A DNA stretch of 37,077 bases. Origin: an uncultured virus (IMG/VR IMGVR_UViG_3300025759_000001). Its lineage: Duplodnaviria; Heunggongvirae; Uroviricota; Caudoviricetes; Crassvirales. The notes under the pieces were generated by a model. That model had not been told where the DNA came from and made no database searches. It was given only the letters and a program-made list of their open reading frames with translations. Numbering within the stretch: the stretch's first letter is position 1; the number at the start of each line of letters is the position of its first letter. The stretch lies in the IMG/VR virus record IMGVR_UViG_3300025759_000001. One strand, given 5' to 3'. The translations under genes were made by a program, and so were the position numbers. This document shows positions 2,311-34,816 of this stretch, piece after piece.

Positions 2311-2324
2311 TTAAAAAAAAAGTA

Positions 2325-3255: not shown

Positions 3256-3303
3256 AAAAGTCACACAGAAAAAAGGATTATAAATTAGGATAATACATTA
3301 AAA

Positions 3304-3609
3304 ATGAGTATATTACAGAAGAAAATAGTAGATATTCCAGAGCCAAAAGCTTATGATTTTTCCGACACAGAAAACGATATAAATTCGTGCGGATTAGAAC
3401 ATAAAACTTTTGGAGAAAGGAATAAAAATCTATTTAATGACTTTGTTGTAGATGCAAGTAAGCAGAATGTGGTAGCATTACTATGTGATAGAATGGAAAA
3501 AACTTTTAATAAAAGAGAGTTAGCATTTCTATTATCAAAACAGACACTAATGGAACACATGAAAGCTCAACAGGATCAAGAACAAGGCAAGAGTGAAAAT
3601 AATAAGTAA
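3304..3609 (+). CDS. Hypothetical protein (101 aa)
   Basis: ORF on the operon strand with A-rich leader; no motif recognised. Confidence 0.7.
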   Translation: MSILQKKIVDIPEPKAYDFSDTENDINSCGLEHKTFGERNKNLFNDFVVDASKQNVVALLCDRMEKTFNKRELAFLLSKQTLMEHMKAQQDQEQGKSENNK

Positions 3610-19600: not shown

Positions 19601-22600
19601 TTTTATTTCCTCAGGTGTAAGTTTACCTCTTTCAGCTAATCTACTAACAAGAGCTTTATATTGATTGACACTCTTCTCAGAGAAGTCAACATACCTAATC
19701 ATAGCTCTAGCGTTAGCTGTATTATTAAGCTTATCCATCTCTTCAGTCAATTTCTTATCTAAGTCTTTAACTTCTTGAAATTTAGTTTTCTCACCTTTAT
19801 CTAGACCAGCTTTTTTGAGCTCTTCAGCAGCAATTTCATTCTTAGTACGAGGCTCAATAGCTTGTCTTAAGTTAGATATAGACGATATGATTTGCTCATA
19901 TGTATTATCTAAAATTACCGCTTCTGGATCTTTCTTTTTCTGTCCAAAGTTCTTTTCTTGCTGAGCAAAATTAGATAAATTATCTAATAAATCAGACTTA
20001 ACAGTATTACTCAATAACTCTTTAGTAAGACTTGTAACCTCACTTTGTTTCAAGTTAAAAGTTCTGCGTAAGAAGTCAAAGAACCAATCCTTGAATGCTG
20101 TCCACATACTCTCTTTTTCTTTACTATCCCATATATCAGCACCCTCTCTACCAATTGCAGTAGCTAAAAGTTCTTTCTGGAACATTTCATTATCTAATTC
20201 AGGATACGCTTCCTTAACTTCGTCATATAAAGCAGTTCCTTCAAGGTCTTTTAAAGCTCTCTGAAGCCTTTTATTTTTAAGTCCACCTGGAAATGCATCA
20301 ATGAAAACGTGAGCAAACTCATGTATTGCAGTCGTCTTGAATACAGCTTTTGGATTAATAAGTATAACAGGTTTTCCTGCAGCAATAGTTCTTGGGTCAT
20401 TAGCGGATAATACCCTTGAAGTAGGGATTGTAGGATCCATGATAACTTCTACATTCATGCTTTTTTGCATATGAGCAATCTTAGCATTAAACACACTAAG
20501 CTCTTCAAGAAGGTAATCATTGCTACTAGATAGCATTCTTTCCTCTTGAACTCCATCACTTAAGTCATCAAGTTTAACTTCTGTGTATTGTAATCCAGTT
20601 TGTAAATCAACATCAACTACTACGAACTCACCAGTAATCTGGTCAATCATGTCATATCTCTCGTTCTTATTAATCATCCATAAATGACTATCTAGCATTT
20701 TACCTTTACCTTCAGTTTTGCTATCTTTAATTTCAGCAAACTTAGTCATATTAGTAAAGAATGTTTTAGGAAACTTTCCTCCAGACTTTGAAAGATAATT
20801 TTTAAATGCAGTTATATCATTAGGATCTAATACCATTGTAGATATTTCACGAACATTCTTAGAAGGAGCTGTATCTTTAGTGATAGTAGCTGAGCCCTCC
20901 CAAAATAAAGGATCACTTCTAAGTTCAGACATCACTTTCGTAATCTCTTTATTAATAGCAACAGGTATATTGTTTCCTTCTATTACAGACTTAGCAGGAG
21001 TGTTCTTTTCATTATATTCAAAGATACTTCCTTTACCAGACTTATGTCCTAACTTATGAGTACGAGTGTATATAGGATTCCCTTCTTTTTCTCCTCTAAA
21101 GATAAACAAGGCATAGTTTGGCATTGAAGCATCTCTTTCACTAATATCTACTTTAACAAATTTAGGAAATAATTTTATTCCAGTATCTTTGTCTTCTTCA
21201 AGAGCTATTGATGATTTAGATTCATCACTTATGAATCCTGTTCCATTACTATATGTTCCTCCAAATCCTTTAACTCTATCAAATCTTAATTCAGGAACTA
21301 GCTTGTACCCAATAGTCTTGTTATCCCACTGATGTCTTATCATTTGGTCTTGAAAATCCTCACCTCCAACAATCTTGTCAGCAGTTCTAAACATCTCATC
21401 AATCTCTCTATTAATACCATTCTCCGCAAAAAAGTTATGAGGTATGTGAGCAAAGAATTGATTAAGATTATTGTTAAACCCTGACTGGGAGTAAGCGTAT
21501 CTTATCAAATCTATTCCAAGTTCTTTCTCACTTGGATCAGAAGAATTAAGTAACCTAGACCATGCTCTGTACATTTTATTATTAAAACTCTTAGTTGCAG
21601 CTCTAGAATCTATACCTAAGAATTCATATCCTCCAGAAGAGTCTATTCTTAATTCCTTAACTAGAAAATTAGTAGAACCAGCCTCTTTTAAAGCATGTAT
21701 CTTTTCAGGTAATTGTTTAAATAAGTAATCATGATCAGCATTGTTGTTCTTAAACACAGATAATCCTGACATAGAATAACTTCTAAAAGAAGCTTCTAAA
21801 ACTCTTCCAAGCTCTGGGTCTTTTAATACTCCTTTTCCAAGCGTTATAGATATCTCATTGAAAGCACTTAATACCTCATTCTTACCAACTAAGAATAAAT
21901 CACTAGCTTGTAATATATCACCAACCCACAATACTGCTTGTTTGTAATAATGACCCATCATTGTTTCATTAAGATGCTTACCAGTGAATCCTTTAGTTTC
22001 AAATCCTAGTATTCTTCCAGAATTAAGAACCTCGTTAACTTTGTTCTCAGCAATCTGTCTAGCTACAACTCCACCTCCGTTACCTTTGGTATCAGCTTTT
22101 GCCGCGTTAACAGAAGCGCTAAAAGATTTAGAATGATCTTGTAAGAACTCAAATATATCTAATATCTTACCTTGTTCAATTTTCTGTTCAGTAGTTAATG
22201 GTCCTGTTCTTCTTATAGCAGCCTCCATTTTAGACTCACTTAAACCAGCTACATCTATCTCGTTAGCCTCAGACTCATTCACTTTATACTTTAATCTTAC
22301 ATACTCATAAGGAGTAACAGTCTTTCCTTTACCATCTTTTTGGAATACTAGTCTTTGAGCAGTCTTACCTTCAGACATGTTGATTATCTCAACAAGATCT
22401 TTAAGTATAGGCTGTCCTATAAGTCTATTAACCCATGATATAGGGGCACCTGCGCGTATAAGCATAGATGTTACATTGGATGTAGTTATATTATGATTAC
22501 CTCTAGATATATAAGGATCTTTAGCTATATCAACATATGCATTCAAGAATGCAGATAACACATCACTAACACTATTCTTACCATTTGTATCGTGTGTTCT

Positions 22601-25600
22601 ATCAAATTTAGTATGACCTTTAGAATCTTTATGTCCAATGCCTAAATAACCTTGAAGACTTATATTTAAACTCTGATTAGAAGCGTGATCAACTAATTGA
22701 TTAGCAATCATAGCTACACCAAACTTACCACTTAAGTATTGAAACTTAGTTTTAATTTGTTGTATAGGGCTCATAAACTGAAGAGACTTCATTTCTGGTG
22801 CAGGAAAAAGATCCTGCATGTCATCTTTCAAGAAACCTGCGTCAATTGAAGTCATCATTGCATCATAGGTATGAGGTGACAACAACACACTAGAATATAA
22901 ATCTACTAACATGTTCTGTTTACCTTTCTTAGAATCAGTATTACTTGGTATTTTCTGTATTTTACCATCTTTCACCTCAAGGTGATGAGTCATAACATAC
23001 ATCTTATCAATATCAAAATCTGAACCTGTCTTACCTGGCACCGCATCGTAAGCAATTATACTATCTCCAAGCTCTGGAGGAAGTATACCTACAATTTCTA
23101 AAGCATCATTCGAACTCATACCTTGATTAGGTATCCTATATGAAACCATTTGTAGAGCGCTAGGGTCTAAGATTTCTTTAAGCTTCTCAGCCGTCATGTT
23201 CCATGGCTTGATAAAGTCTGGGTGATCCTCAATCTTGTTAAGATCACCTTTCTCTAATGATCTATTATGCTTATCAATTGTAGCTCTTATTGCACTGTAA
23301 GGCAACATAGCTTGTCCTGGCAATACTTTACCATTTTCTATACGTGGTGGTTTTAAACCTTTACCATCGTAGTTATCACTAACTATTTTTATACCTGATC
23401 TAAGTACTTTAGCTGGTCCTTTACCGGACGAATCTTTTACAATTTCTTGTACAGACTCAAGTCCAAATGGAGATACCTGAATAAAACTACCGCCATTGGT
23501 TTTAACTTTAACAAGTTCTTTGTTAAAAATAGACATAAAGATGCTCTGCACTCTACCTGATAATTGAGGTATTGCATCAAATCTCATTTCCTTCTCTAAT
23601 GCTGAGATGATATTTTCATCTCCACCTCTTGATTTAAATTCATCAATTAGCGCATCATAGACTCCAGTCATGTCAGTAATCTTATTATCTTCTCCTATTC
23701 CAAACCTTTCTTGCAGTGAGGCTCTGCCTTCGCTAACTAAAGAACCAATAGTATCATGAATTAACTCCATAATTTCTCCACCAGTCTTAGGTTCACCATT
23801 CAACTCATAATTAGCATCACCGGATGTTAAATCAATACCAGCTAATATATTTTTCTGAATTTGAGATCCAGTTAAAGTATCATGTATAAGTTTAGTAGGT
23901 AAATCTTGTTGTAACTTCCATCCACCATTAAGTAAAGGTGTTGAATTAAGTTCGAATTCATCCATTAATTCCAGTGTACCTGGCTTATGTATATCTGTAA
24001 TACCCTTTGCTCCAACTTTTACACCATCTCGAGTAATAACCTCATGAAGTTCATCTTTCTTATTCTCATAAGGCTTCTTAGTTGCAGGATCAATAGTCAT
24101 CTTATCATACATCTTCTGCATTGGAGTATTTTTGACTAAACTAGGAACTAGTACAGCTTGAGAATATTTCAAATATACGGGACGTCCCTCATTAATTTCA
24201 AAGTATACACCCTTAAGTGGTTGTGCAGCAAGTTTAAGCTCCTTAGGCTCTAACTCTTTACCTGCCATCATCTTATCAAATACCTTTTCATGCTGAGCAC
24301 CCCATTTACCTAATCTCTCTTTAAGAAACTTCCATCTATGAGGAGTTATCCATGCTTGAGCATCAGTAGTGTTAATGTTCTTATATGCCTCTATTAAGCT
24401 TTTGTCAGTAAGTGAATCTTGAATCTCCTTAATATAAGAAGAAGCAACCTCGACTCCATTAACAGTAGCCTGGTTAAAGTACTTGTGATCATTCTTACTA
24501 AGTCTTAATTGTAGTCCATCAGTATATGTAGCAGGTACACGCTTAATTAAATCACTTTGATTCTTGTAATAAGCTTGGTCACCTGAAAATAACTTAGTAT
24601 ATTCAATTGTAGATATTAATCCATTTACAACATAGTCACCTACCATAGTGTGAATAGGAGATTCTTGTGTCCCATAACTTTCCATCAAGGTGTTATCAAT
24701 AGTAAGTGGTTTCAATTCGCCTTTTGCTTTAGGATTTACTTCTATGATTCTATTTGTTCTTAATTCAACAAGAGTTTCTTTCATCCTGTCTTTAATAGCT
24801 TGTTCAACAAATGGCTTTAATGCTTCTTTTTGAGAACTAGTTAAACCAGTCATTGTAGACTTCTTAGGATGTCCATTCTTATCATATAAGATGGCCTTAA
24901 GTTTAGGCTCAGCTTCAGAAGGATTAAATTCTGGAAATAGTTGAGACTTAAGCGCATTCATGCTTTTAGTATGATAGTGCTCTATCTTTTCTGAATCAGG
25001 TAAGTTAGCTATCTCATCAGCTGCCTCAGACATTCTGTTATACTCATCTTCAAAATAGTCTACAAAGATTTCAATAGTAGCATTATCAATGCTCACACCC
25101 TTCCCTTTAGTATATACTATCCCAGTTTGATGCATGTCAAATCCACCAATATCCATCTTACGGGACTTGTCCGCTGGAACAATAGTAGGAAAGATAGATT
25201 TTTGTAATGTACCTTTCTTACCAAGAATCTTTACCATACTATCATTAATAGCATCAGCAATTGTTATCTTGGTATTGTCAACACCATCATTCTTATTTTT
25301 AGATTTAATAGAACTAGATAGACTTATTTCAACAGATTTTATTCTTTCTAATGATTTTGCTTCTCTTTCACTGTCATTAACTATGTCAGAAGCTAATAAG
25401 AACTTCAACCATCTAGAGTTTTTGTTATATGTTTGACCAGCTAGTTCTTTGATATCAATTGTACTATCATCTCCAGCTTGCTGTTTCCAGGCATTTATTT
25501 TGTTATGTAAATAGCTTAAAGAAGAATAGGTCCAATATGTCTTACCTTCATTACCTACTATTGTATTCTCAGATAATTGTATAGCACTTAATGCTTGAGC

Positions 25601-27196
25601 ACCAGCAACTCTACTTAATACTTTCTGAAAGTCAAATGGATTTTTGAATTCACCAACAGTAGTTACAAAAGGAGATTTCTCATCTTTTATATGCTTCATA
25701 GTTTCCTCCATTCCTTCATACAATGCTTTTACTTCTCCATATCTCTTTTTAGGATCAGCAACTTGAAGTATAAAATTACGCATGTCAAGGCTATTAACAT
25801 TAATACCAAGAGCGTTCATAGCTTGCATTAATATAGGTAGATTCTCACTAATACTTTTTATTTGAGAAGCAGCAGTACCTCTAGTACCAGCTTGTTTAAT
25901 AAACTTATTCTTAGACTCGGTAATTAGATCTGAAATTTGATCTACATCAAGAGCCTTTTTCATCTTACCCTTATTGGTTAAGAACTTTTTTCTAAATCCA
26001 CGTCCCCATTCACCTTTAAGCTTACTAGTTCTAGAGTTAGTAGCAGAAGCGTTGATTACTTTAATATTTCTACCATCAACTTCAGTTACATAATATGTAA
26101 GGCTTGCTTTTGAAAACGCTTGAAAGAATTCAGTGATTTTGTTTCTCTCACCAATCTTATCAGAAGTGTTTAACTCTCTTAACCTATCAGCTAATCCCTT
26201 AGTCCATGGCTTAACTAATTTTAATCCATCAATTTTCTCAACCATAAGGTCAAATACGTCTTGAACATCTCCACCTAAGTTAAAGTTTACTAAATCAGAT
26301 AACATAGGCTCCAATGTAGTCCATACATCATCGAATTCAACAAATTGAGGCTTACCTAGAAACCTACCTGAAACAGTATCAAGTTTAGCTTCAGTCTTGC
26401 CATTATTATTTATATATACACTGCCGTCAGCATTCTTTCTAACAACAACTTCTGAATCTAATACGGTAGATAATAATAATTTTACATTTACAGATGCGCT
26501 ATCTTTAGAGTTCTTTGTGAAGTTTTCAGCAAAGTTCATACCAGTAGATTTATCCTCTTCAGATATTTCACTTTCAGGATTACCCTGCTCATCAGTAAGA
26601 TCTTGAATCTGATCTTTTCTAGCTCCTGCTTTAATACGCTTGCTAGATGTAAGACCCATGTCTTCTATCTGAGTTCTTACTTCAATTATAAAATCTTCTT
26701 TGTATTTTTGGACTAGATCTGCCCGTTGTATTGCGTCAGGATCTCCTGCATTCTCTGACCTGTAAGAGTCAATACTAGATTGTATTGATTCACCTATTTT
26801 AAGACCCTTAATCTCATCAATGTTATTGAAATCAAACCCTTCTTTAGTTGAGAATAATTCATACTTAAGTTGATTAGTAATTTCGTAAACATCATCAGGA
26901 TCTATTTCAGGAAACTTAATTTTATTTAAAAAATGTTTCTTCCCGTCTGCAAGTTTGTAGTAGTGTTCATTACCAGACTTGTATAATTTAGGATAACCAT
27001 TGTCATCCTGTCTTAAAGCACCGTACTTATCAACCCAGTTTGCTTCTTTGTTTCCTTCCCAGTCACCAAATACTTCTTTGAATTCGTCAGATGCAATTTT
27101 ACGTGCCTCTGCATTAGCTAACTCTAGTGTACCTAGAACATCAACCAACTTCTCTTCAAATTTCATGGCGCCTATACAATTCGATTTATTACCCAT
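16619..27196 (-). CDS. Giant virion-packaged RNA polymerase (crAss-like two-barrel type) fused to a zincin-like domain and C-terminal helical region, 3525 aa
   Basis: YRIPNQG and KTGSDFDIDK (catalytic DxDxD, 23003-23020), TDAQAWIT, QPLKGVY, VDIAKDP; HEFAH at 20309-20323; one Cys in the whole protein. Confidence 0.92.
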   Translation of the reverse strand: MGNKSNCIGAMKFEEKLVDVLGTLELANAEARKIASDEFKEVFGDWEGNKEANWVDKYGALRQDDNGYPKLYKSGNEHYYKLADGKKHFLNKIKFPEIDPDDVYEITNQLKYELFSTKEGFDFNNIDEIKGLKIGESIQSSIDSYRSENAGDPDAIQRADLVQKYKEDFIIEVRTQIEDMGLTSSKRIKAGARKDQIQDLTDEQGNPESEISEEDKSTGMNFAENFTKNSKDSASVNVKLLLSTVLDSEVVVRKNADGSVYINNNGKTEAKLDTVSGRFLGKPQFVEFDDVWTTLEPMLSDLVNFNLGGDVQDVFDLMVEKIDGLKLVKPWTKGLADRLRELNTSDKIGERNKITEFFQAFSKASLTYYVTEVDGRNIKVINASATNSRTSKLKGEWGRGFRKKFLTNKGKMKKALDVDQISDLITESKNKFIKQAGTRGTAASQIKSISENLPILMQAMNALGINVNSLDMRNFILQVADPKKRYGEVKALYEGMEETMKHIKDEKSPFVTTVGEFKNPFDFQKVLSRVAGAQALSAIQLSENTIVGNEGKTYWTYSSLSYLHNKINAWKQQAGDDSTIDIKELAGQTYNKNSRWLKFLLASDIVNDSEREAKSLERIKSVEISLSSSIKSKNKNDGVDNTKITIADAINDSMVKILGKKGTLQKSIFPTIVPADKSRKMDIGGFDMHQTGIVYTKGKGVSIDNATIEIFVDYFEDEYNRMSEAADEIANLPDSEKIEHYHTKSMNALKSQLFPEFNPSEAEPKLKAILYDKNGHPKKSTMTGLTSSQKEALKPFVEQAIKDRMKETLVELRTNRIIEVNPKAKGELKPLTIDNTLMESYGTQESPIHTMVGDYVVNGLISTIEYTKLFSGDQAYYKNQSDLIKRVPATYTDGLQLRLSKNDHKYFNQATVNGVEVASSYIKEIQDSLTDKSLIEAYKNINTTDAQAWITPHRWKFLKERLGKWGAQHEKVFDKMMAGKELEPKELKLAAQPLKGVYFEINEGRPVYLKYSQAVLVPSLVKNTPMQKMYDKMTIDPATKKPYENKKDELHEVITRDGVKVGAKGITDIHKPGTLELMDEFELNSTPLLNGGWKLQQDLPTKLIHDTLTGSQIQKNILAGIDLTSGDANYELNGEPKTGGEIMELIHDTIGSLVSEGRASLQERFGIGEDNKITDMTGVYDALIDEFKSRGGDENIISALEKEMRFDAIPQLSGRVQSIFMSIFNKELVKVKTNGGSFIQVSPFGLESVQEIVKDSSGKGPAKVLRSGIKIVSDNYDGKGLKPPRIENGKVLPGQAMLPYSAIRATIDKHNRSLEKGDLNKIEDHPDFIKPWNMTAEKLKEILDPSALQMVSYRIPNQGMSSNDALEIVGILPPELGDSIIAYDAVPGKTGSDFDIDKMYVMTHHLEVKDGKIQKIPSNTDSKKGKQNMLVDLYSSVLLSPHTYDAMMTSIDAGFLKDDMQDLFPAPEMKSLQFMSPIQQIKTKFQYLSGKFGVAMIANQLVDHASNQSLNISLQGYLGIGHKDSKGHTKFDRTHDTNGKNSVSDVLSAFLNAYVDIAKDPYISRGNHNITTSNVTSMLIRAGAPISWVNRLIGQPILKDLVEIINMSEGKTAQRLVFQKDGKGKTVTPYEYVRLKYKVNESEANEIDVAGLSESKMEAAIRRTGPLTTEQKIEQGKILDIFEFLQDHSKSFSASVNAAKADTKGNGGGVVARQIAENKVNEVLNSGRILGFETKGFTGKHLNETMMGHYYKQAVLWVGDILQASDLFLVGKNEVLSAFNEISITLGKGVLKDPELGRVLEASFRSYSMSGLSVFKNNNADHDYLFKQLPEKIHALKEAGSTNFLVKELRIDSSGGYEFLGIDSRAATKSFNNKMYRAWSRLLNSSDPSEKELGIDLIRYAYSQSGFNNNLNQFFAHIPHNFFAENGINREIDEMFRTADKIVGGEDFQDQMIRHQWDNKTIGYKLVPELRFDRVKGFGGTYSNGTGFISDESKSSIALEEDKDTGIKLFPKFVKVDISERDASMPNYALFIFRGEKEGNPIYTRTHKLGHKSGKGSIFEYNEKNTPAKSVIEGNNIPVAINKEITKVMSELRSDPLFWEGSATITKDTAPSKNVREISTMVLDPNDITAFKNYLSKSGGKFPKTFFTNMTKFAEIKDSKTEGKGKMLDSHLWMINKNERYDMIDQITGEFVVVDVDLQTGLQYTEVKLDDLSDGVQEERMLSSSNDYLLEELSVFNAKIAHMQKSMNVEVIMDPTIPTSRVLSANDPRTIAAGKPVILINPKAVFKTTAIHEFAHVFIDAFPGGLKNKRLQRALKDLEGTALYDEVKEAYPELDNEMFQKELLATAIGREGADIWDSKEKESMWTAFKDWFFDFLRRTFNLKQSEVTSLTKELLSNTVKSDLLDNLSNFAQQEKNFGQKKKDPEAVILDNTYEQIISSISNLRQAIEPRTKNEIAAEELKKAGLDKGEKTKFQEVKDLDKKLTEEMDKLNNTANARAMIRYVDFSEKSVNQYKALVSRLAERGKLTPEEIKNIKFFTSVFTMIPDVKQLMLEQYNKGYLKNDNGQKKKRMDVLDKIIADYDTLNQEMLGVSRRIYAKTMVDNSNEHVTVWRTKYEKEYAELEAKNSKPDESIHVWVNEKMIANADTIQAEAFEFYEEQAKKSLSDIHASTGWLVSEKNIANAEIQTVSAMIDAADFEVDRWVQSQAKLVEEAYENFSKAYPSSIGSEERYRKFIDQTDEGSYLISEYNPGFLSKYYEANSWMNRSVYEEKFKGIEISEDGSYTLNGEKKSLHLPSNGLKVEGTHVFYTEAGIVYSMTLEEAIGKTERANWIEANTDSKKTTYGLDIKPKKKLWSNKAYDALSVKDREHLKAMKKMIVDANVLTGGKQSLIEKAGVVDFYRLPGITRSSQARAIAGDLKSLVSDSVTDMFKKKEDEFELEDTGTKAENKGKDSIKRMADLTNKQKFDVPIPFRSKLAKSDQSLDVHTILLMNLKEAKNYEQKKKLEAQVHVMIDVMSNRLIPNHSGLQKLAVMHGFSRDKEIQMHLPKEQLPEDVKTLISIMESRIYGIKEKDAGSAAGVNMQKATTTLLKYSGSVALIGNFVNSFVNATTGTVNNLIEAWGGETYGMKNWKNAGLKYWKDAKGLVGDMGSNTHSSRTNMMLDIFNVLGSRESLNNNFEDNSRLKSMIKTSKLRPIAQGGEHMMQAKVMYAVLDRIKVLNKKGEFLTKDGKVTKDVDKAATLDEVMYFEKDKKGEAHMKLPKWAAATTFSPQPGKQDDILTEARGLIKKKIIDLHGNYDNDLKNQAQREWWGKLLFFLKKWMESTTLRRFRGYATALKASEELRDVDRFYSEDMKQYQEGYYVTAFRFLKHTLPQAVKEFKFEVITGNYKNLSKHEKANIRRITAEFGMMALTLLAYTAMGGFDEEPDDDTLLARYYLRRELSELTFYLNPAETIKLMKNPTASISVIERFTKILGQMTSPTEVYQQGKNEGRLKLWVKTKKAFPWWAQTEKDYKASLRFLQIMD

Positions 27197-27221
27197 TTGT
27201 TTTTATAGCGTTTAAATTTGT

Positions 27222-30200
27222 TTATAATATACAATCCCACTCACCTTGTTCAGTGAAACCTTCGTCTTTATTAGGATCTTCTTCTTTAATTTTTCTTTCT
27301 TTACTTATTTCTTCAGCTTGTTTAGCTTCATTAGCAGACTCAAACTCAATATTTGTTTGCTTAATCTTCATCTCTCTTTCTGCCATCTTGTTTCTAGCTA
27401 TTACTTCATCTTTTGCTTTAAGATCAACTAGTATTTTATTAACCTCAGCAGTCTTGTCTGTAAATATAGCCTTTTCTCTGGTAGAAAGCAAATCATTCGA
27501 CATAATTTTATTAGCAATCTTATTTAACTGCATTTTAGATACGGTGCCATTGTCTACAAACTTCTTCCAGATATCATTTGATATTGGTTCATTACTTTTA
27601 GCTCTTTCTGCAGCGAATCCATCAAAAGATTCATCAAATCCTTCATATTCAGGAGACTCTTTAACAACCCCACTAGTTTGTTGTGTTGGTTCTAAAGCAG
27701 CTATTTTAGCATCATACTTAGTATTGATTTCATTTATTTTTTTAATTGTTTTAGAACTAATTGCTTTATTAAATTCTTCTTTATTTTTTAGATAAGGAGA
27801 AAATTTTGGTTCATACGAGAAATTACCAGCTTCTAATGAACTATAAGTTGGAGTTGTATCTGGTCTATGATTGTCAGAAGTACTCATCAAGCTATAATGC
27901 TTTGAATTCGGCATACTTGCATCACTATCCTTTACAATTATATAGTAAGGATATTGTTTTAACTCAGCTTTTCTTTCAGCTTCTATTTTATCTATTTCAA
28001 CTTTAGCTCTATCTTCTTTAGCTTTTTTAAATTTATCTAACTCAGAATCTCTTGCATCATTTGCCACATCTAAATTACCAACTACTGTTCTACCTTTAGC
28101 CCCATCAAACTTAGAAACAATACCTCTTTTTTCAAGAAGATCCATTATTCTACCAGCTTGCTCGTATCCTATTTGTAGTTTTCTCTGAATTAGAGATGCA
28201 CTAGCACTAGCGGCATCAATGACTATTTTCTTAGCTCTCTCATATAAGCTCTCATCAGTTTCACTATCGGGAACTTCTTTAATGACAGTTGCAGCTTTCT
28301 GAGCAGGAGCATCTAATCTCTCTGCATCATATCTAGCTTTAATAAGTTCTTTAACATGTGCTTCATTCTTTCCGTATACAGGAATTCTATTTCTTTGTTT
28401 ATCAAAGAATACACCGGCAAAGCCTTTTTCTCTTTCATTAACTACACCAGCCTTGTTAGATAGAGCTTCTCTTTCGGAAACTTTCTTATTAACAGCTGTT
28501 GGGTTCTTAGGCACAACCTTTGTTGCCTCAGGAGTTCCGTCAGGTACCTTGAACATAATATCAGACTTGAATGCTCCTAGTTCATTTTCACGACCAATAG
28601 TTTCATTCTCTGAGAAAGTAGTATTTTCAGACCCAACAACAGCATCAGTAGATATAACAGTGTTAAGCATCATTTCTCTGTACTTAGCTCCATAACTACC
28701 ATGGTTCCATTGATTAAGATTCAGCTGACGTCTCTTCTCATTCATTATAAAGCCTATTAAAGCTTCTCTATTATCACCAACATTATCAGGTGTAACAATA
28801 CCTTTAAAACCACCTTCAGTATCAGGGTCTAAACCATATCTAATCCATTCACCACTTAAATGTAAATGTGTGGCTTTACCTGCAGTTTCAGATGTCATAT
28901 GAACAAATAGCTTAGCTACATCCATAACTTTAGCATCTTTACCTAGTACAGCAAATTCATTAGGATGATCTTCTTTAAATGTTTTGAATAAATCAGCATC
29001 ACTACTTAATAATGCTTCTTTTCCAATCTTTTTAAGCATAATAGCTATCAATATATCTGCTACAAAAGTAGACTCTGCTATATTAGGCTTTCTAAGATTA
29101 AGTTTCAATGGAAAAGGATCACCATTAGCCTTAGGAATGTTTAAAAACACTCCGCCTTTATAAGGAACCGGGTTTGTATTATCATCTTGAACACCTATTA
29201 CATCTATTTGTAATCCTTCAAAGTCAGGATGATCAGACTTGTCACTAGCTCTAACTAAAGTGCCGTGCTCATTTGTAACCATTAAGTCAACCTTACCCAT
29301 ACTTCCATTAATAAATGGAAATTGCATTACATTGTTTTCAGGTATAGCGCCATTCTCTTCTTTAATTTCCTGAACATTTAAATTACCACCAAATTGATGA
29401 GTAACTTGTGTTTGAGTATTACCCAAGAACATTTGTCTAATGATATTCTCTCTTTTAGGAAGTTCATTAGTTTTATAAAATGCATTTGTCTTACTATAAG
29501 CAGGTATATGTGACCATATATCATCAGTAAGTTGTATCTTAATAGGAAGATGATTAAATAAAATATCTTTCTCTTCAGCTGTTAATTTTATCTTAGGATT
29601 CTTCTTGGCTTTATTGAATATCTCAATAGCTTGTTGTCCTAGTTTAGAATGTATTCCACCAGGAGTTCCAACAACATAGTCAAGCAATACTGGCTTACCA
29701 TCTTTAGCTCCTGTTTTATCTTTACCATTAAATACCCAGTCTTTCCAGCCTGGTCCATTTAAGTTAGCGTATAAAGGAACCTTGATATTACTACTAACTT
29801 TATCCGTATTAATAGCTCTATCCTTTCCTTTCTCTTGAGACTTAGTAGTCTTAGTTACATTTGTTGAGTCTTCTGCATGCTCATCTTCAATATTATCTGC
29901 AACACTAGCTTTGTTAGCGTTACTTACAGTTGTTGTATTAGCAGATCTAGCAGCTTCTTCAGCTAATCTTTCAGCCTCTCTGGCATCGTCATTAGCATAC
30001 TCTCTTGCAACAGCTTCTTCATTAGCAAGCTCTTCTATGTTTTCATTAACAACAGCTGCATTCTTAATCTTCTCATCTTTAGTTAAAAAATCAGACTCCT
30101 CTATTTCTTTCTGAAGTTCTTGTCCTTGCTCTTCAGTTTCAAGTGGAGTATTAACTCTATGAGTTAGCTCTTGCTTTTTAAGACCTTTTCTATAAGACTC

Positions 30201-32354
30201 TTTACGAATATCTCCATTCTCTGATTGATTAAGTGATATCTCTGCGTTGTTACGCTCCTTAATCATGTAAGCCTCTGTTAGTTCAGCAGTAACGTCTTCA
30301 TCGAAGCCTTGAGCAAGTCTAGCATCTTTTCTTTTTTGTTCAGCATCTCGTGGGTCATCACCTTTGATAGCCTGATAGTCAAGCGTCATCTTAGCAATAC
30401 GCTTCTCATTGTCTTTTATTAATTTCTCAATATGTGGTTTTCTTAACTCACTAACACCTTCTTGTTCAAGTTGTTTCTTAAATGTCTCATTCATTTGAGT
30501 CAAAGCCTTAACCTTCATAAGACCCTCAATCTTTTCCATTTGAGTAGTCGATATAGCACTAGCATTAGGAACTCCATAAGTAACCTTCTGAATCTTTTCA
30601 TCCATCTTGGCAGAGTTCTCTACAAATCTTTTTGTTCTATAATTGTTTTGGGCCATTTTAGCCGCAATGTTAGCATCATACTTATTAGAGAATTTTAAAT
30701 AATCCATCCTCATCTCTTCAGACTTTTTAATAACAGATGGTATATTTTTCTTAGCTAACTCTAGGTTGAAATCACTACCTCCTTGTTCTTTTAAAGCAGC
30801 AGCCTCTTCTTTAGTCATGCTTGCAATACCTTCTAAAGCTTCAATATGTTGATCGAATTTACCGCGATGTAATGAATCAGTAGTCATCATTAACATCATC
30901 TCATCCAATACCATCTCTCTTGCTTCAAGATTGTTGTTATTATCAGCATCTGATAATTTTTGTTGCATAGACATAAAGTTACGAGCTCTATCATTTAGAG
31001 TCGTAGCATATGTTTTCTCATATTCTTTTTCAAAGGTTCTTTTTTTCTTTCCCTTTTTAAGTTCACTCAAACCTTTACCTGCAAAATGAAATAAGTTACC
31101 ACCAAGACCACCAAAGAATGCAGATGTTTTCATTTCATCTGAGCCCATGGCATCTTCCATTATTTCGTCATACTTTTCCCTTGTAATAATCCCAGCATTA
31201 AGATCAGCCATAGCTTTGGCATTCTCAGCAATTAAGTATTGATAAGATTCTTCAGCACCTTCTGAAACGAAAGTACCTACTCCACCTGAAACTTTTTGCA
31301 TCCAAGGTTTCATTTTAACTCCAAGACCTCTACTAGATGCTTTAGACAAAGCATTCTCCATCCTACTAGTGTGAGGATTGAATATCTTACCAAGTGCTAG
31401 ATATTGAGGAATATCTTGTAATAACATGGCCCAACCTTTATTATAGTTATCAGACGCAGCTGTTGATGCTATTTGAGTAGCTTTCTCTTCTGTGAAAGGT
31501 AAGCCTGTTTCTTTATCTATTTTATTTAATAACTCTTCACGTTTAGATTCAAATGTACCGGATGCTTCCATAGAGTTTTCTATGTGTCTAGATACAACAG
31601 CTTGGGATATACCCTCTGTCATCCATGTAGACTTTTTACCCATGTTTTCAGCAACATCTAGTACGCGAGAAAATTTTCCACCAAGCTTTGAAGCTCCCTT
31701 ACCTAGAAATCCTAAAGCTTTAGTTGCAGCCATAGAAGGTATAAGCATGCTTAATGTACTAGCAACAGATACTCCGTTACTGAACCACCATCCTGAATCA
31801 GAAGGATCGAACTTACCAGGTGCTTTTTGATGAATAGCCATAGCGTCTTGTCCCCATGTTCTTAACCCTTTACCAGCATCTGTCATAAAGTTTCCCCACT
31901 CAGTCTCGTTACCAGTCATGTAATCCATAACACTGCCTAAGTCAAGTAAGTAACCTAATCCTTCAACAGTACCACCAATTATCTCACCAACAACAGCTTG
32001 ACCAATCATATTACCAGCTTGTTGCCATCCTGATTGTAACTCACCACGACGTCTATTTAATTCTTCAACGCCACCAGTAGGCATAAATATAGTACTACCA
32101 AGATAATCAGTGTAATCCTCTACATCTAAACCTTCGTACCTGTTATCCTCCATGATACTAGGACCGTCGTCTACAATTGAAATCTCATCATCTTTAGGAT
32201 CAGTTTTCTCAACCTCGACTGGATCAGTATCAACAATAGATATGTCAGCAGTGTCTTTTACAGGCTCTGTCTTGTCTAATTCAGTGAATTCATTCTCCAC
32301 TACAATAGCATCTGGTGTGCCAGCAAAATCTTGATTATTCTGTGTTTCCGCCAT
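27222..32354 (-). CDS. Large virion cargo/ejection protein (1710 aa) with an internal FtsK-gamma domain
   Basis: Directly upstream of the vRNAP; Gly-rich hydrophobic helices in the N-terminal quarter, long charged helical region, FtsK-gamma at 28080-28256, one Cys. Confidence 0.78.
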   Translation of the reverse strand: MAETQNNQDFAGTPDAIVVENEFTELDKTEPVKDTADISIVDTDPVEVEKTDPKDDEISIVDDGPSIMEDNRYEGLDVEDYTDYLGSTIFMPTGGVEELNRRRGELQSGWQQAGNMIGQAVVGEIIGGTVEGLGYLLDLGSVMDYMTGNETEWGNFMTDAGKGLRTWGQDAMAIHQKAPGKFDPSDSGWWFSNGVSVASTLSMLIPSMAATKALGFLGKGASKLGGKFSRVLDVAENMGKKSTWMTEGISQAVVSRHIENSMEASGTFESKREELLNKIDKETGLPFTEEKATQIASTAASDNYNKGWAMLLQDIPQYLALGKIFNPHTSRMENALSKASSRGLGVKMKPWMQKVSGGVGTFVSEGAEESYQYLIAENAKAMADLNAGIITREKYDEIMEDAMGSDEMKTSAFFGGLGGNLFHFAGKGLSELKKGKKKRTFEKEYEKTYATTLNDRARNFMSMQQKLSDADNNNNLEAREMVLDEMMLMMTTDSLHRGKFDQHIEALEGIASMTKEEAAALKEQGGSDFNLELAKKNIPSVIKKSEEMRMDYLKFSNKYDANIAAKMAQNNYRTKRFVENSAKMDEKIQKVTYGVPNASAISTTQMEKIEGLMKVKALTQMNETFKKQLEQEGVSELRKPHIEKLIKDNEKRIAKMTLDYQAIKGDDPRDAEQKRKDARLAQGFDEDVTAELTEAYMIKERNNAEISLNQSENGDIRKESYRKGLKKQELTHRVNTPLETEEQGQELQKEIEESDFLTKDEKIKNAAVVNENIEELANEEAVAREYANDDAREAERLAEEAARSANTTTVSNANKASVADNIEDEHAEDSTNVTKTTKSQEKGKDRAINTDKVSSNIKVPLYANLNGPGWKDWVFNGKDKTGAKDGKPVLLDYVVGTPGGIHSKLGQQAIEIFNKAKKNPKIKLTAEEKDILFNHLPIKIQLTDDIWSHIPAYSKTNAFYKTNELPKRENIIRQMFLGNTQTQVTHQFGGNLNVQEIKEENGAIPENNVMQFPFINGSMGKVDLMVTNEHGTLVRASDKSDHPDFEGLQIDVIGVQDDNTNPVPYKGGVFLNIPKANGDPFPLKLNLRKPNIAESTFVADILIAIMLKKIGKEALLSSDADLFKTFKEDHPNEFAVLGKDAKVMDVAKLFVHMTSETAGKATHLHLSGEWIRYGLDPDTEGGFKGIVTPDNVGDNREALIGFIMNEKRRQLNLNQWNHGSYGAKYREMMLNTVISTDAVVGSENTTFSENETIGRENELGAFKSDIMFKVPDGTPEATKVVPKNPTAVNKKVSEREALSNKAGVVNEREKGFAGVFFDKQRNRIPVYGKNEAHVKELIKARYDAERLDAPAQKAATVIKEVPDSETDESLYERAKKIVIDAASASASLIQRKLQIGYEQAGRIMDLLEKRGIVSKFDGAKGRTVVGNLDVANDARDSELDKFKKAKEDRAKVEIDKIEAERKAELKQYPYYIIVKDSDASMPNSKHYSLMSTSDNHRPDTTPTYSSLEAGNFSYEPKFSPYLKNKEEFNKAISSKTIKKINEINTKYDAKIAALEPTQQTSGVVKESPEYEGFDESFDGFAAERAKSNEPISNDIWKKFVDNGTVSKMQLNKIANKIMSNDLLSTREKAIFTDKTAEVNKILVDLKAKDEVIARNKMAEREMKIKQTNIEFESANEAKQAEEISKERKIKEEDPNKDEGFTEQGEWDCIL

Positions 32355-34623
32355 TTTGTTTCTTTAAGTCTTTTACTAATTCTTCATACAAATACGTAGC
32401 CATATCTGCCTCTCCAAACAACTCTCTTGATTGGAATTCTCCAACTTTTATTCTCCAGACATCTCTGGAACCAACTTGAGCCTTAACCCAAGAAATTGGA
32501 GTTTCAACTCCTTTTATTTTTATATTCTTACCTTGCACTGTTCCTTCAATATTGCCACTTCTTATTTCAGAAGCTTTAATCTTAGGCATGTATTCTGCAC
32601 TGGCAATCATCTTTCTGCCTTTAGCAGCTAATCCTGGGTCACTAGAAACAGCTAGTTCTTTTCCAGCACTAAGTTGTGTTGATTTACCAAGATCTCCTCT
32701 TGTTATAGTTTTAACCTCTATTACAGATCCATTCTTATCCTTAACAACTAAGTGCTCAATAGGATATCCTTTTTCATCATGTCCATCAGTTACCCTAACA
32801 TCATAATCAACTTTAGCTTCACCAGTACTTGGATCCGGTGGATAAGTCTCAGACAAGTAAGAGAACATATCTTTACCTGAATAAGCTTCTGAATAACCTG
32901 ATCCCTTAAATCCATCACTCAATACTTCATTCAATCCACCAATCTTACTTGAGTACTTACCATTATTAAGAGCACTGAATTCTGTATATGACTCAGAGTA
33001 TAAGTTCTGACTAGACTCTAAATGCTTTCTTACGAGATCATTAGCTCTACTTTTAATATCATCAAATGATTCCCAAGCCCCTCTAGGATCTAATTCATTT
33101 CCAACAAATCTGTTAGTTATATTCTTTTTATCTAAATAATGCCTAAGTAACTCATCAGATTTATTTACCGGAACAATATTATAATTACCAGTTTTATTAT
33201 TTAATACTCTCCCTTCTCCAGTTATATCTAAATCATCAGGATTAACCCCAAGCTTAATAAGCTCTTTTTCTAAGTAGTCAACTTTAGTAGCTTCATCTTG
33301 AGTTCTAAGCTCACTTATTTGTTCAGCAAATTCGTATTCTTTCTTTTCTTCATCTGTAAAACCTTCTAACGCTTTAGTTTCAACTCTATTAATAAGGTTG
33401 TTTAATTTATGATACTTTACTTTAGAATCATTAAGTTCTTTTTTAGCTTGTTCAAAAGCAACAGGATTAGACTTTCTTCTAGCTTCAAATTCATCTTTCT
33501 TGGCTTTATCAAAGTTAGGGTCAAGCATTTGTTCATCAGTTCCCCAAAATGCATTATTTTCTGATGTCTGTCTCTCAAGCTCATTAAGGGCCAATCCTGT
33601 ATTTTCTTTAATTTCATCAATATTATCAGGTGTAACTGTGGTAAGAACACCATTAGCAGCTCTAACCAGATCAGCAGCTTCTCTAGCATCAAGTCCTCTT
33701 TCGTGTAACTCTTTAGCTGCTGTATCAGTATTAAAGTGATATTTTAAACTTTGCTCTCTAGATTGCCCACCTGCAGCGGCTCCAAATAGTTGTCTACCAA
33801 ATTGATTACCTGGAATAAATACATCTTTCTTAGTTCCGTCAGCTCTATATCTAACTTCCCACTTACCTATATTTCTAGCATCACCTGCATTAGGGTCAAA
33901 GAATTGTTGTTGTTTCAATGAGGCCTGTAAATCAGGATCATTAGAAGCCATAGTGGTTAAGGAAGACATAATCTTATTGAAATCTCTTTCTTTTATTATA
34001 CCAGAAGCATAAGCCTGTGTAAACTGATCTAAGTTACCTGTATATTTCATTGCATCTTGCGAGGCATCTGCCTGTACAAGCTTTAAATTTTTGTTAATCC
34101 AATCATTAGTACCAACTTTAGTAGATAGGCCAGTTCCTGAAAACTGTTTAAAATTACCTAACTCATCAAAAGAACTACCAAAATCACTTACTTGCTTTGT
34201 AGCCCATACTTTTGCCTCTTGTGGTGACCAACCTGCTTGTGATATTTTCTTAGTGGCAAGATCATTTATATATTTCTGTGCAGAAGTGTAATTAGCTTTA
34301 GCTTGACCTACAACGCCAGAAGCACCGAAAGATTTCTTTTGAGATGATCTCAATTTACGAAGCTTATTTGACAAACCTCTGTCTACTCCACGATCCATCA
34401 AATCTTTGGATATCTGCTCAGATTCCTTTCTGATTCTTTCTAATTCTGCATCAACAACACCTGCATCACCTTCAAGTCTTTTTGTCTCAAGAGCCTCTAG
34501 CTCATCAGTTGCAGCCAATGAAGCATCTTGCCTAGCTTGTTTAGCTAAAGGCACTGCCATTATCTCATCTAGAGAAAGACCTTTAAATCCTGCTGTTGTT
34601 ATGTTACTAAATCTATTTGCCAT
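32335..34623 (-). CDS. Putative virion cargo/ejection protein (762 aa)
   Basis: In the cargo cluster, Cys-free, largely helical and charged; stop overlaps the start of the next gene. Confidence 0.7.
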   Translation of the reverse strand: MANRFSNITTAGFKGLSLDEIMAVPLAKQARQDASLAATDELEALETKRLEGDAGVVDAELERIRKESEQISKDLMDRGVDRGLSNKLRKLRSSQKKSFGASGVVGQAKANYTSAQKYINDLATKKISQAGWSPQEAKVWATKQVSDFGSSFDELGNFKQFSGTGLSTKVGTNDWINKNLKLVQADASQDAMKYTGNLDQFTQAYASGIIKERDFNKIMSSLTTMASNDPDLQASLKQQQFFDPNAGDARNIGKWEVRYRADGTKKDVFIPGNQFGRQLFGAAAGGQSREQSLKYHFNTDTAAKELHERGLDAREAADLVRAANGVLTTVTPDNIDEIKENTGLALNELERQTSENNAFWGTDEQMLDPNFDKAKKDEFEARRKSNPVAFEQAKKELNDSKVKYHKLNNLINRVETKALEGFTDEEKKEYEFAEQISELRTQDEATKVDYLEKELIKLGVNPDDLDITGEGRVLNNKTGNYNIVPVNKSDELLRHYLDKKNITNRFVGNELDPRGAWESFDDIKSRANDLVRKHLESSQNLYSESYTEFSALNNGKYSSKIGGLNEVLSDGFKGSGYSEAYSGKDMFSYLSETYPPDPSTGEAKVDYDVRVTDGHDEKGYPIEHLVVKDKNGSVIEVKTITRGDLGKSTQLSAGKELAVSSDPGLAAKGRKMIASAEYMPKIKASEIRSGNIEGTVQGKNIKIKGVETPISWVKAQVGSRDVWRIKVGEFQSRELFGEADMATYLYEELVKDLKKQNGGNTE

Positions 34624-34624
34624 A

Positions 34625-34816
34625 TTAATTATTGTTAAGCTTTTCTAACAGTGCGTCTTTATCGTTCATAAATATAGTTATAAAATCCTTAACATCCTCA
34701 CGATTGATGACAATTTTTTCATCATTGTAGGTGAGTACGAATCTTTTCTTCTTGTGATCTATGTAGATATCGTCATTATCTACTATATTGAGTAATAATA
34801 AATACGCTCTTGTCAT
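34625..34816 (-). CDS. Hypothetical protein (63 aa)
   Basis: Fills the gap between two cargo genes with 12-nt and 1-nt spacers; A-rich leader. Confidence 0.65.
   Translation of the reverse strand: MTRAYLLLLNIVDNDDIYIDHKKKRFVLTYNDEKIVINREDVKDFITIFMNDKDALLEKLNNN

What the first reader, a model, noticed from the sequence alone, without database searches (positions are those of the whole stretch)
27176..27233. Only two cysteines in ~6,800 residues of virion cargo, facing each other across one gene junction: a possible head-to-tail disulfide tether
Seen: in a manual scan of all minus-strand proteins (3525, 1710, 762, 63, 520 and the partial ~228 aa) I find exactly two Cys. One is Cys1708 of the 1710-aa protein (...GEWDCIL*, codon 27231-27233). 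The other is Cys7 of the virion RNAP encoded immediately downstream (MGNKSNC..., codon 27176-27178). Plus-strand proteins use Cys freely. Known: ejected virion proteins such as the N4 virion RNAP avoid Cys, consistent with unfolded transit through the oxidising periplasm. Inference: the two retained terminal Cys covalently link (or co-ligate a metal between) the tail of one cargo protein and the head of the next. This would form a redox-cleavable chain that fixes stoichiometry and ejection order, and would release the RNAP in the reducing cytoplasm. The A-rich context (ATAAAAACAAATG) favours Met1 over Met11 (GGCGCCATG), so Cys7 is probably translated.
Basis: partly seen in the sequence, partly recalled or inferred. 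Interest (0 to 1): 0.85.

Follow-up and report, generated by a model that had tools for sequence, protein, structure and literature searches.

The report
Terminal cysteines tether crAss cargo proteins
In this crAss-like phage, two giant injected proteins (one is its particle-borne RNA polymerase) have no cysteine except one each at the two ends that face each other, a rule relatives keep wherever these genes are split and drop where they are fused, which points to an untested end-to-end disulfide link.

Summary
The six minus-strand ORFs (6,807 aa) hold exactly two Cys: Cys1708 of the 1710-aa protein and Cys7 of the 3525-aa virion RNA polymerase (vRNAP). The plus strand has 74 Cys in 5,342 aa.

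The 3525-aa protein is a fusion of Cellulophaga phage phi14:2 gp66 (vRNAP) and gp65. The 1710-aa protein is gp67-like.

- In 64 non-redundant relatives, 103 of 103 junctions between separately encoded module proteins have a Cys within 16 residues of both facing ends.
- 0 of 47 outer N-ends and 0 of 61 outer C-ends have one.
- Fused forms lack the pair, and a fully fused 4,726-aa protein has no Cys at all.
- The rule holds in phage crAss001, where the first gene lies on the opposite strand, so it acts on the proteins.

Relatives with Lys in place of Met11 support Met1 as the start.

The only structural precedent I found is cyanophage A4, where cryo-EM shows a gp27 Cys1715-gp26 Cys5 disulfide (PMC12002296). 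Those proteins are not detectably homologous. No paper found states the crAss rule. The bond itself is untested. This scan has noted the same rule before on other genomes.

The parts
27222..32354 (-). Gene for the 1710-aa protein 'A' (phi14:2 gp67-like giant cargo protein). Its only Cys is residue 1708, three residues from the C-terminus.
   Evidence: BLASTP to phi14:2 g067, E 2e-17. 78 homologs found. C1708 is an invariant column in the 38-sequence alignment A2, although the tail around it is not conserved.
27231..27233 (-). TGT codon of Cys1708 (...GEWDCIL*)
27197..27221 (-). 25-nt spacer between the stop codon of A and the ATG of the vRNAP gene. It has no terminator-like site.
27176..27178 (-). 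TGT codon of Cys7 of the vRNAP (MGNKSNCIGAM...)
   Evidence: The MGxxSxC(I/L)GA head is kept in P0080 and P0082-P0085. P0084 and P0085 have K at position 11, so Met1 is the start.
16619..27196 (-). Gene for the 3525-aa fused 'BC' protein. Residues ~12-2061 match phi14:2 gp66 (vRNAP catalytic protein) and residues ~2269-3522 match gp65 (RNAP-associated protein). Its only Cys is residue 7.
   Evidence: E 4e-173, 8e-58 and 1e-116. PDB 6VR4, E 5e-215. Family profiles place B at 3-2179 and C at 2187-3525.
23006..23020 (-). DFDID, the DFDxD catalytic motif of crAss-type vRNAPs (residues 1393-1397)
   Evidence: GKTGSDFDIDKMYVM. D1393, D1395 and D1397 are invariant in alignment A1. The motif is named in the abstract of 10.1101/2020.03.07.982082 (listing).
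20636..20662 (-). Approximate B-to-C fusion point (residues ~2179-2187). Split relatives carry a C-terminal and an N-terminal Cys here; this protein has none.
32335..34623 (-). 762-aa Cys-free upstream cargo-module protein (N-terminus MANRF...). Relatives have a Cys-free counterpart at the same position.
34829..36391 (-). 520-aa Cys-free protein with a weak, sub-threshold match to the crAss cargo protein 1 domain
   Evidence: PF25725, E 3.7e-4, 21 bits against a cut-off of 27..
34625..34816 (-). 63-aa Cys-free ORF
36393..37076 (-). 5'-open 227-aa Cys-free ORF at the window edge

Best explanation
The window carries the ejected-protein module of a marine crAss-like phage. It holds a gp67-like 1710-aa protein (A), followed by a 3525-aa fusion of the virion RNA polymerase (B) and its associated protein (C). 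Across the order this module behaves like one giant polyprotein that can be cut at gene level between A, B and C. Every cut is flanked by one Cys a few residues from the new C-terminus and one a few residues from the new N-terminus. The rest of the module is almost free of Cys.

Most likely, Cys1708 of A and Cys7 of BC form an intermolecular disulfide in the virion. This re-joins the two polypeptides head to tail into one thread of about 5,200 residues.

The following steps are inferred. Both Cys sit within 7 residues of the ends, so the branch stubs are short and the linked chain can pass the portal and tail channel like a single unfolded polypeptide, N to C, with A leading. The near-total lack of other Cys avoids wrong cross-links. 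Host cytoplasmic reductants then separate the parts.

Shown here: the counts, the homology, the co-variation with gene splits and fusions, and independence from gene adjacency. Shown elsewhere: a real disulfide of this exact geometry in cyanophage A4. Inferred: the bond in crassviruses, when it forms, and its role in ejection order and release.
For: (1) Window counts: 2 Cys in 6,807 aa, both at the A|BC junction.

(2) phi14:2, about 25-32% identical: gp67 (1797 aa) has one Cys, its last residue. gp66 (2180 aa) has two, at positions 3 and 2179. gp65 (1421 aa) has one, at position 3.

(3) Protein families:
- A family: 75 of 78 have a Cys in the last 16 residues, and 72 of those have no other Cys.
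- C family: 72 of 73 have a Cys in the first 16 residues and none has one at the C-end.
- B family (best 120 of 554 hits): 103 of 107 proteins under 3300 aa have both terminal Cys.
- All 13 B-family proteins of 3300 aa or more contain the C domain. 0 of 13 have a C-terminal Cys and 11 of 13 have the N-terminal one. Of the other two, one was called from Met11 and one is truncated at the N-end.
- 11 B proteins carrying extra C-terminal domains keep the Cys at the new end.

(4) Genomic loci:
- 78 IMG/VR loci reduce to 64 non-redundant ones.
- 103 of 103 junctions have a Cys on both facing ends.
- 0 of 47 outer N-ends of A and 0 of 61 outer C-ends of C have one.
- 207 of 238 Cys (87%) lie in the junction-facing windows, which are 1.0% of 326,407 residues.
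- The N-terminal Cys is at position 2-7 in 102 of 103 junctions. The C-terminal Cys is within the last 7 residues in 102 of 103.
- AB|C forms (for example L048: 4392 aa [-2] | 1329 aa [4]) keep only the B|C pair.
- The fully fused L060 (4,726 aa) has zero Cys.
- An extra split in L054 adds an extra pair (3890 [-2] | 1167 [4,-2] | 1308 [4]).

(5) The rule does not depend on gene adjacency. crAss001 gp47 [-3] is encoded on the opposite strand from gp50 [5...,-9] and gp49 [5]. L032 and L042 have Cys-rich genes inserted between B and C. 10 of the 103 junctions span more than 200 nt.

(6) The rule is seen in Steigviridae, Intestiviridae, Suoliviridae and Flavobacterium phage FpV4.

(7) Precedent: the A4 cryo-EM structure shows a disulfide between gp27 Cys1715 and gp26 Cys5 (passages read). 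In the A-4L record each of these is the sole Cys of its protein, at -3 and at 5.

(8) Purified crAss001 virions contain inter-subunit disulfides in the tail (passages of PMC10172136).
Against: - No experiment shows this bond in any crassvirus. The RNAP-associated cargo proteins were not resolved in the crAss001 maps.
- The phi14:2 preprint does not mention Cys or covalent gp65-gp66-gp67 species (term search).
- Virions assemble in a reducing cytoplasm and gut crassviruses live without oxygen, so when and whether the thiols oxidise is unknown.
- Two thiols could equally share a metal ion. Sequence data cannot tell these apart.
- The rule has loose edges. In L062 the upstream A-like protein (labelled A by BLAST, not by the profile) has its Cys at -32. 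The AB fusion L038 has a single Cys (1786) near the A/B boundary. IAS virus and the Intestiviridae genome ctbg_1 carry 7-10 internal Cys besides the terminal ones.
- N-terminal positions rest on my rule of taking the first ATG.
Confidence: 0.7

Rival explanations
1. The facing terminal Cys do join the two proteins end to end, but through a shared metal ion (a Zn-hook-like bridge, possibly using several copies) rather than a disulfide. Such a bridge could already form in the reducing cytoplasm during assembly.
For: It has the same co-variation evidence as the disulfide reading. A metal bridge would solve the problem of forming a bond in a reducing cytoplasm (inference).
Against: There is only one Cys per terminus. 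The flanking residues are not conserved and no recurrent His, Asp or Cys co-ligands appear (tails such as DWDCII, GCGF, TDQC, KCKK; neighbours are mostly K and N). The one solved case of this geometry is a disulfide.
Confidence: 0.15
2. The terminal Cys do not pair with each other. Each binds something else, for example the same Cys of a second copy (homodimers), a capsid, portal or scaffold protein, or it acts as a packaging or processing signal.
For: A and C each carry a lone Cys that could in principle pair with any thiol. Other cargo proteins have Cys pairs of their own (crAss001 gp45 at 390/398, DAC15 gp080).
Against: This does not explain why the Cys appear and vanish strictly in facing pairs with each split or fusion (103 of 103 junctions; no outer end; ABC fusion Cys-free). 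It also does not explain why each junction pair exists alone in some architecture (A|BC and AB|C), which leaves head-to-tail as the only pairing that uses every thiol in all architectures.
Confidence: 0.08
3. The pattern comes from chance or a nucleotide-level effect. Cys might simply be tolerated at unconstrained ends, or the TGT codons might belong to a translational signal (coupling, or a bypass between the two ATTGTATA copies 55 nt apart).
For: ATTGTATA covers both Cys codons in the window.
Against: The 8-mer is not enriched: 5 matches against 2.97 expected, and 13 of 100 shuffles reach 5. phi14:2 uses TGC/TGT in a different sequence context. The Cys persist when the genes lie on opposite strands or are separated by up to 6,169 nt. 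Outer ends never carry a Cys (0 of 47 and 0 of 61), so mere tolerance at ends fails.
Confidence: 0.01

Closest known systems
Cyanopodophage A4 (Anabaena phage A-4L, Saffermanviridae) pre-ejectosome pair gp27-gp26, with a Cys1715-Cys5 disulfide seen by cryo-EM (PNAS 2025, PMC12002296; passages read)
   Same: These are two consecutive genes for packaged ejection proteins. The upstream protein's only Cys is 3 residues from its C-end (1717 aa) and the downstream protein's only Cys is residue 5 (1114 aa). This is the same geometry as Cys1708 and Cys7 here.
   Different: There is no detectable sequence homology (BLASTP best E 0.009; my A/B/C profiles give no hit at E<=10). A4 has one pair, no vRNAP, and no reported co-variation with gene fusion. 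The passages I read treat it as a local stabilising bond and state no general rule.
phi14:2 gp67/gp66/gp65 and crAss001 gp47/gp50/gp49, the virion RNAP module of Crassvirales (bioRxiv 10.1101/2020.03.07.982082, passages; PMC10172136, passages)
   Same: The window's proteins are homologs and carry the DFDxD motif. The preprint states that all three proteins are in virions and that in some phages they are fused into one polyprotein.
   Different: These papers do not mention the terminal Cys. The term 'cysteine' has 0 occurrences in both, and 'disulfide' refers only to tail and portal-vertex proteins in PMC10172136. The preprint proposes cleavage of the fused forms, not re-joining of the split forms. 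The window has the B+C fusion.
Schitoviridae (N4 gp50-52, DEV gp71-73) Cys-free ejection proteins (PMC11445570, passages)
   Same: A giant packaged vRNAP and its co-ejected proteins are almost devoid of Cys, which is explained there by passage through the periplasm.
   Different: There the depletion is complete and the rare Cys are treated as annotation errors. No terminal pairs are described. The N4 vRNAP is a different polymerase type (T7-like, recalled). No similarity was found in the Pfam or PHROGs scans of the window protein.
Structural inter-subunit disulfides of the crAss001 tail and portal vertex (PMC10172136)
   Same: They show that crassvirus particles, as purified, do hold intermolecular disulfides.
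   Different: They join folded structural subunits side by side. They do not join the ends of ejected cargo proteins.

Membership tests
Crassvirales virion RNAP module (phi14:2 gp67-gp66-gp65 type) | Homology of the large protein to gp66, the two-barrel vRNAP | tested here: met
   BLASTP E 4e-173 and 8e-58. PDB 6VR4 E 5e-215.
Crassvirales virion RNAP module (phi14:2 gp67-gp66-gp65 type) | DFDxD catalytic motif | tested here: met
   DFDID at residues 1393-1397. The three Asp are invariant in 36 homologs.
Crassvirales virion RNAP module (phi14:2 gp67-gp66-gp65 type) | gp65-like and gp67-like partners present | tested here: met
   gp65 matches residues 2269-3522 (E 1e-116), fused to B. gp67 matches the 1710-aa protein (E 2e-17).
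Crassvirales virion RNAP module (phi14:2 gp67-gp66-gp65 type) | Proteins packaged in the virion | not testable with these tools
   The phi14:2 record annotates the homologs from MS/MS proteomics, and crAss001 gp47, gp49 and gp50 were detected in virions. There are no data for this phage.
A4-type end-to-end disulfide pair of ejection proteins | Sole Cys of the upstream protein lies next to its C-terminus and sole Cys of the downstream protein lies next to its N-terminus | tested here: met
   Cys1708 of 1710 and Cys7 of 3525. In A4, -3 and 5.
A4-type end-to-end disulfide pair of ejection proteins | Disulfide physically observed | not testable with these tools
   Seen only in A4. No crassvirus structure resolves these termini.
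A4-type end-to-end disulfide pair of ejection proteins | Sequence homology to A4 gp27 and gp26 | tested here: not met
   BLASTP best E 0.009. hmmsearch with the A/B/C profiles gave no hit. The resemblance is in how it works, not in family membership.
Cys-depleted ejected phage proteins (Schitoviridae-type rule) | Cys frequency far below that of the rest of the proteome | tested here: met
   0.029% against 1.39% in the window. 0.073% over 326,407 residues of relatives.

The most novel reading that the evidence does not exclude
The giant cargo proteins of all crassviruses are one functional 'split polyprotein'. Wherever evolution cut the gene, a pair of terminal cysteines stitches the pieces back together by a disulfide into a single thread of 5,000-7,000 residues. 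The thread is ejected N to C through the tail as if it were one polypeptide. The host's reducing cytoplasm then unzips it, releasing and so timing the activation of the virion RNA polymerase. This would be a redox-gated, covalent ordering device for protein injection, found independently in cyanopodophage A4.
Probability: 0.45. Interest if true: 0.9.

Novelty: new variant of a known kind. Interest (0 to 1): 0.78.

Why it matters
Crassviruses are the most abundant viruses of the human gut. How they deliver about 5 MDa of cargo protein, including a multi-part RNA polymerase, through a narrow tail is an open question (PMC10172136).

A simple sequence rule that held at all 103 junctions examined gives a concrete and cheap test. 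One can run non-reducing gels and disulfide-peptide mass spectrometry on phi14:2 or crAss001 virions.

If the rule reflects a real bond, it would explain three things:
- how stoichiometry and ejection order are fixed;
- why the genes can be fused or split freely in evolution;
- why these proteins shun cysteine.

The rule also gives annotators a practical marker for true starts, true ends and the order of these giant genes. It links crassviruses to a bond seen so far in a single cyanophage structure.

Tried and rejected
- **Complex prediction.** I folded residues 1-600 of the vRNAP with residues 1480-1710 of the 1710-aa protein, without alignments. The result was no verdict (score 0.00, partner fold uncertain), so it is evidence neither way. 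A version with alignments did not run.
- **Translational bypass or coupling signal** based on the repeated ATTGTATA. Rejected: the 8-mer is not enriched, it is absent in phi14:2, and the Cys persist without gene adjacency.
- **Terminator or promoter at the junction.** No terminator was found, and promoter-like hits are at chance level.
- **Homology between the crAss module and A4 gp26-gp29.** None was found.
- **Near-identical named phage.** Megablast of the 20-kb block against the phage collection found nothing. PHROGs found nothing for the vRNAP.
- **Intramolecular N-to-C disulfide within B.** Rejected as the general rule, because A|BC and AB|C architectures each leave just one facing pair.
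- **Native-chemical-ligation or intein-type chemistry.** Rejected by reasoning: the Cys is not residue 1 and there is no intein-sized domain at the ends.
- **Literature.** Searches found no paper stating the crAss rule. Subscription-only papers and supplements (for example Extended Data of PMC10172136) were not seen and could hold relevant gel or mass-spectrometry data.
Full report
**1. The observation**

The window's minus strand from 16619 to 37076 carries six ORFs of 3525, 1710, 762, 63, 520 and 227 (5'-open) aa. A script count gives 6,807 residues with exactly two Cys. One is Cys1708 of the 1710-aa protein (...GEWDCIL*, TGT at 27231-27233). The other is Cys7 of the 3525-aa protein (MGNKSNCIGAMKFEE, TGT at 27176-27178); the sequence was read. 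The genes are 25 nt apart. The 25 plus-strand ORFs hold 74 Cys in 5,342 aa, or 1.39%. At that rate about 94 Cys would be expected in the minus-strand block.

**2. What the genes are**

- Pfam finds only an FtsK-gamma domain in the 1710-aa protein, and a sub-threshold crAss cargo-protein-1 match in the 520-aa protein. PHROGs finds nothing for the large protein.
- The nearest named phage is Cellulophaga phage phi14:2, Crassvirales.
- BLASTP shows that the 3525-aa protein is phi14:2 gp66 (residues 12-2061) fused to gp65 (residues 2269-3522). It also shows that the 1710-aa protein is gp67-like.
- The solved gp66 structure 6VR4 matches at E 5e-215.
- The catalytic DFDID motif is present and its Asp residues are invariant in 36 homologs.
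- The phi14:2 preprint says gp65, gp66 and gp67 are all in the virion and are fused into one polyprotein in some phages (passages only).

I call the three modules A (gp67-like), B (gp66-like vRNAP) and C (gp65-like). The window's architecture is A|BC.

**3. The start codon**

Relatives P0084 (64% identical) and P0085 (56%) begin MGKKSDCLGAKA and MGNSSNCIGAKN. They have Lys where the window has Met11, and they keep the Cys. Met1 is therefore the conserved start. One database entry (P0081) was called from Met11 and so appears Cys-free, which is a gene-calling choice.

**4. phi14:2**

phi14:2 is only about 25-32% identical, yet it shows the pattern twice:
- gp67 (1797 aa) has one Cys, its last residue.
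- gp66 (2180 aa) has two, at positions 3 and 2179.
- gp65 (1421 aa) has one, at position 3.

The window, where B and C are fused, lacks exactly the B|C pair.

**5. Protein families**

Three searches of the large protein collection were counted by script.

- A family: 75 of 78 have a Cys in the last 16 residues, and 72 of these have no other Cys in 1,350-2,700 aa. Two Cys-free entries look truncated and one has its Cys at -62.
- C family: 72 of 73 have a Cys in the first 16 residues, and none has one at the C-end.
- B family (the best 120 of 554 hits were listed and counted): 103 of the 107 proteins under 3300 aa have both terminal Cys. Two have only the N-terminal one and two only the C-terminal one; these four look truncated or mis-started.
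- All 13 B-family proteins of 3300 aa or more contain the C domain. 0 of 13 have a C-terminal Cys.
- Eleven B proteins that gained extra C-terminal domains (2,566-3,187 aa) carry the Cys at the new end, so it follows the terminus and not a domain.
- In alignment A2 the C-terminal Cys is an invariant column inside an otherwise unconserved tail.

**6. Genomic context**

An alignment-based scan of IMG/VR returned 78 loci. I called plus-strand ORFs from the first ATG and labelled them with BLAST and with profiles built from the three families. I then removed loci with 90% or more identity in the B domain, which left 64.

Architectures found:

| Architecture | Loci |
|---|---|
| A\|B\|C | 40 |
| B\|C (A off the contig, undetected, or part of a long AB-like protein) | 17 |
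| AB\|C | 3 |
| A\|BC | 2 |
| A\|B (cut) | 1 |
| ABC | 1 |

Results:
- 103 of 103 junctions between consecutive module proteins have a Cys within 16 residues of both facing ends.
- 0 of 47 outer N-ends of A and 0 of 61 outer C-ends of C have one.
- The module proteins hold 238 Cys in 326,407 residues (0.073%). 207 of these (87%) lie in the junction-facing windows, which make up 1.0% of the residues.
- The N-terminal Cys is at position 2-7 in 102 of 103 junctions. The C-terminal Cys is within the last 7 residues in 102 of 103.
- Telling cases: L048 is 4392 aa [-2] | 1329 aa [4]. L082 is 5322 aa [-2] | 1108 aa [4]. L054 has an extra split and an extra pair (3890 [-2] | 1167 [4,-2] | 1308 [4]). 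L060 is one 4,726-aa ABC protein with no Cys at all.

Loose edges:
- In L062 the upstream A-like protein (A by BLAST, not by profile) has its Cys at -32.
- L038 (an AB fusion) has one Cys near the A/B boundary.
- L018 has a truncated A without Cys; it was removed as redundant.

**7. The rule acts on proteins, not on DNA**

- In crAss001 the A-type gene gp47 (2341 aa, sole Cys at -3) lies on the opposite strand. Its 3' end is about 11 kb from the start of gp50 (2412 aa; Cys at 5, -1079, -9), which is followed by gp49 (1349 aa; Cys 5).
- DAC15 and IAS virus behave alike, with more internal Cys in IAS.
- L032 and L042 have Cys-rich genes inserted between B and C and still keep the terminal Cys. 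Ten junctions span more than 200 nt, up to 6,169 nt.
- The ATTGTATA copy over both Cys codons in the window is not enriched. No terminator lies in the spacer.
- The rule also holds in an Intestiviridae genome (2312 aa [...,-2] | 4407 aa [3...]), in two stop-recoded Suoliviridae genomes (4328 [...,-3] | 1381 [4]; 4491 [...,-4] | 1803 [3]) and in Flavobacterium phage FpV4 (4287 [-2] | 1596 [3,-136]).

**8. Mechanism**

Each junction pair exists alone in some architecture: the A|B pair in A|BC and the B|C pair in AB|C. The fully fused form has none. Head-to-tail pairing is therefore the only scheme that uses every thiol in every architecture. The most economical reading is an intermolecular disulfide that replaces the missing peptide bond.

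The following points are inferences. The Cys hug the ends so that the branch stubs stay short enough for the linked chain to thread the portal and tail as one unfolded polypeptide. Cys is purged elsewhere to avoid wrong links. The host cytoplasm reduces the bond and frees the parts.

Partial unfolding of cargo and N-to-C ejection are proposed for crAss001 by Bayfield et al., who also report real inter-subunit disulfides in its tail (passages). A metal bridge between the two thiols cannot be excluded from sequence. When oxidation would happen, given a reducing cytoplasm and an anoxic gut, is unknown.

**9. What is known**

The paper shows a disulfide between Cys1715 of gp27 and Cys5 of gp26 in the pre-ejectosome (passages).
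- In the A-4L record these are the only Cys of a 1717-aa and a 1114-aa protein encoded by consecutive genes.
- The A4 proteins show no detectable homology to the crAss module. The likeness is therefore in mechanism, not in family.
- Cys suppression in ejected proteins is documented for Schitoviridae.
- Eight literature searches and term searches in the two key crassvirus papers found no statement of the terminal-Cys rule for crassviruses. Papers outside the library, and supplements, were not seen.

**10. Verdict**

The bond and its function remain to be shown at the bench.
- I rate it a new variant of a known kind. The kind is the end-to-end disulfide pair of ejection proteins, known from one structure. 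Here it extends to an order-wide rule covering two to four proteins and co-varying with gene fusion, and it includes the virion RNA polymerase.
- The same rule has been noted by this scan on many other genomes. I scored on what I tested here.

Noticed in passing
window 28080-28256 (-), residues 1367-1425 of the 1710-aa protein: There is an FtsK-gamma domain (PF09397, E 1e-20) inside the giant cargo protein; I recall this as a winged-helix DNA-binding domain. Only some homologs carry it (precomputed Pfam column). It may tie the leading cargo protein to DNA.
   Followed up: no
1710-aa protein residues ~186-330 (window ~31365-31799, -): This is the most conserved stretch of family A. It has many invariant residues (D186, G188, W190 ... 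Q317, F325) and a hydrophobic consensus (DSGWWFSNGVSVASTLSMLIPSMAATKAL). It looks like a membrane-inserting segment, which would fit A leading the chain.
   Followed up: no
homologs P0019, P0069, P0091, P0094, P0095, P0119, P0123, P0140, P0180 and others: Relatives of A and B carry varied extra enzyme domains by precomputed Pfam accession: PF13604/PF13245/PF13538 (helicase-type), PF13532, PF08719, PF18760, PF25176. The names are recalled and were not checked. These look like injected accessory effectors riding on the chain.
   Followed up: no
L060 5273-19453 (+): A single 4,726-aa ORF covers A, B and C with no Cys at all. It is the fully fused form.
   Followed up: partly
L080 16969-17730 (+): A 253-aa ORF sits between B and C. 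It ends ...IKRIKNCN, much like the tail of the preceding B protein (...QTRIKECN). It has no N-terminal Cys, so it does not fit the rule.
   Followed up: no
L085 1096-2892 (FpV4 gp30): The sole Cys of this 598-aa protein is at position 5 (MKKKCATKK...). It lies upstream of the Cys-free gp31 and the AB fusion, and no facing partner was identified.
   Followed up: no
L087 5988-8516 (crAss001 gp45); L088 3177-5675 (DAC15 gp080); L001 3512-4774 (phi14:2 g069): These upstream virion proteins (cargo protein 1 in crAss001) carry closely spaced internal Cys pairs: 390/398; 211/219 and 273/281; 369/378. This recurrent spacing of 8-9 residues could be a small metal or disulfide loop.
   Followed up: no
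L092 and L093 (Suoliviridae cr113_1, cr4_1): Under table 11 the late genes hold many in-frame stops (for example 73 in the 4328-aa protein). This fits the stop-codon recoding known in some crAss-like phages. The terminal Cys rule still holds.
   Followed up: no
window 1004-1225 (+): A 73-aa ORF has 7 Cys (9.6%), the most Cys-rich in the window. It is probably a small zinc-binding protein of the plus-strand module.
   Followed up: no
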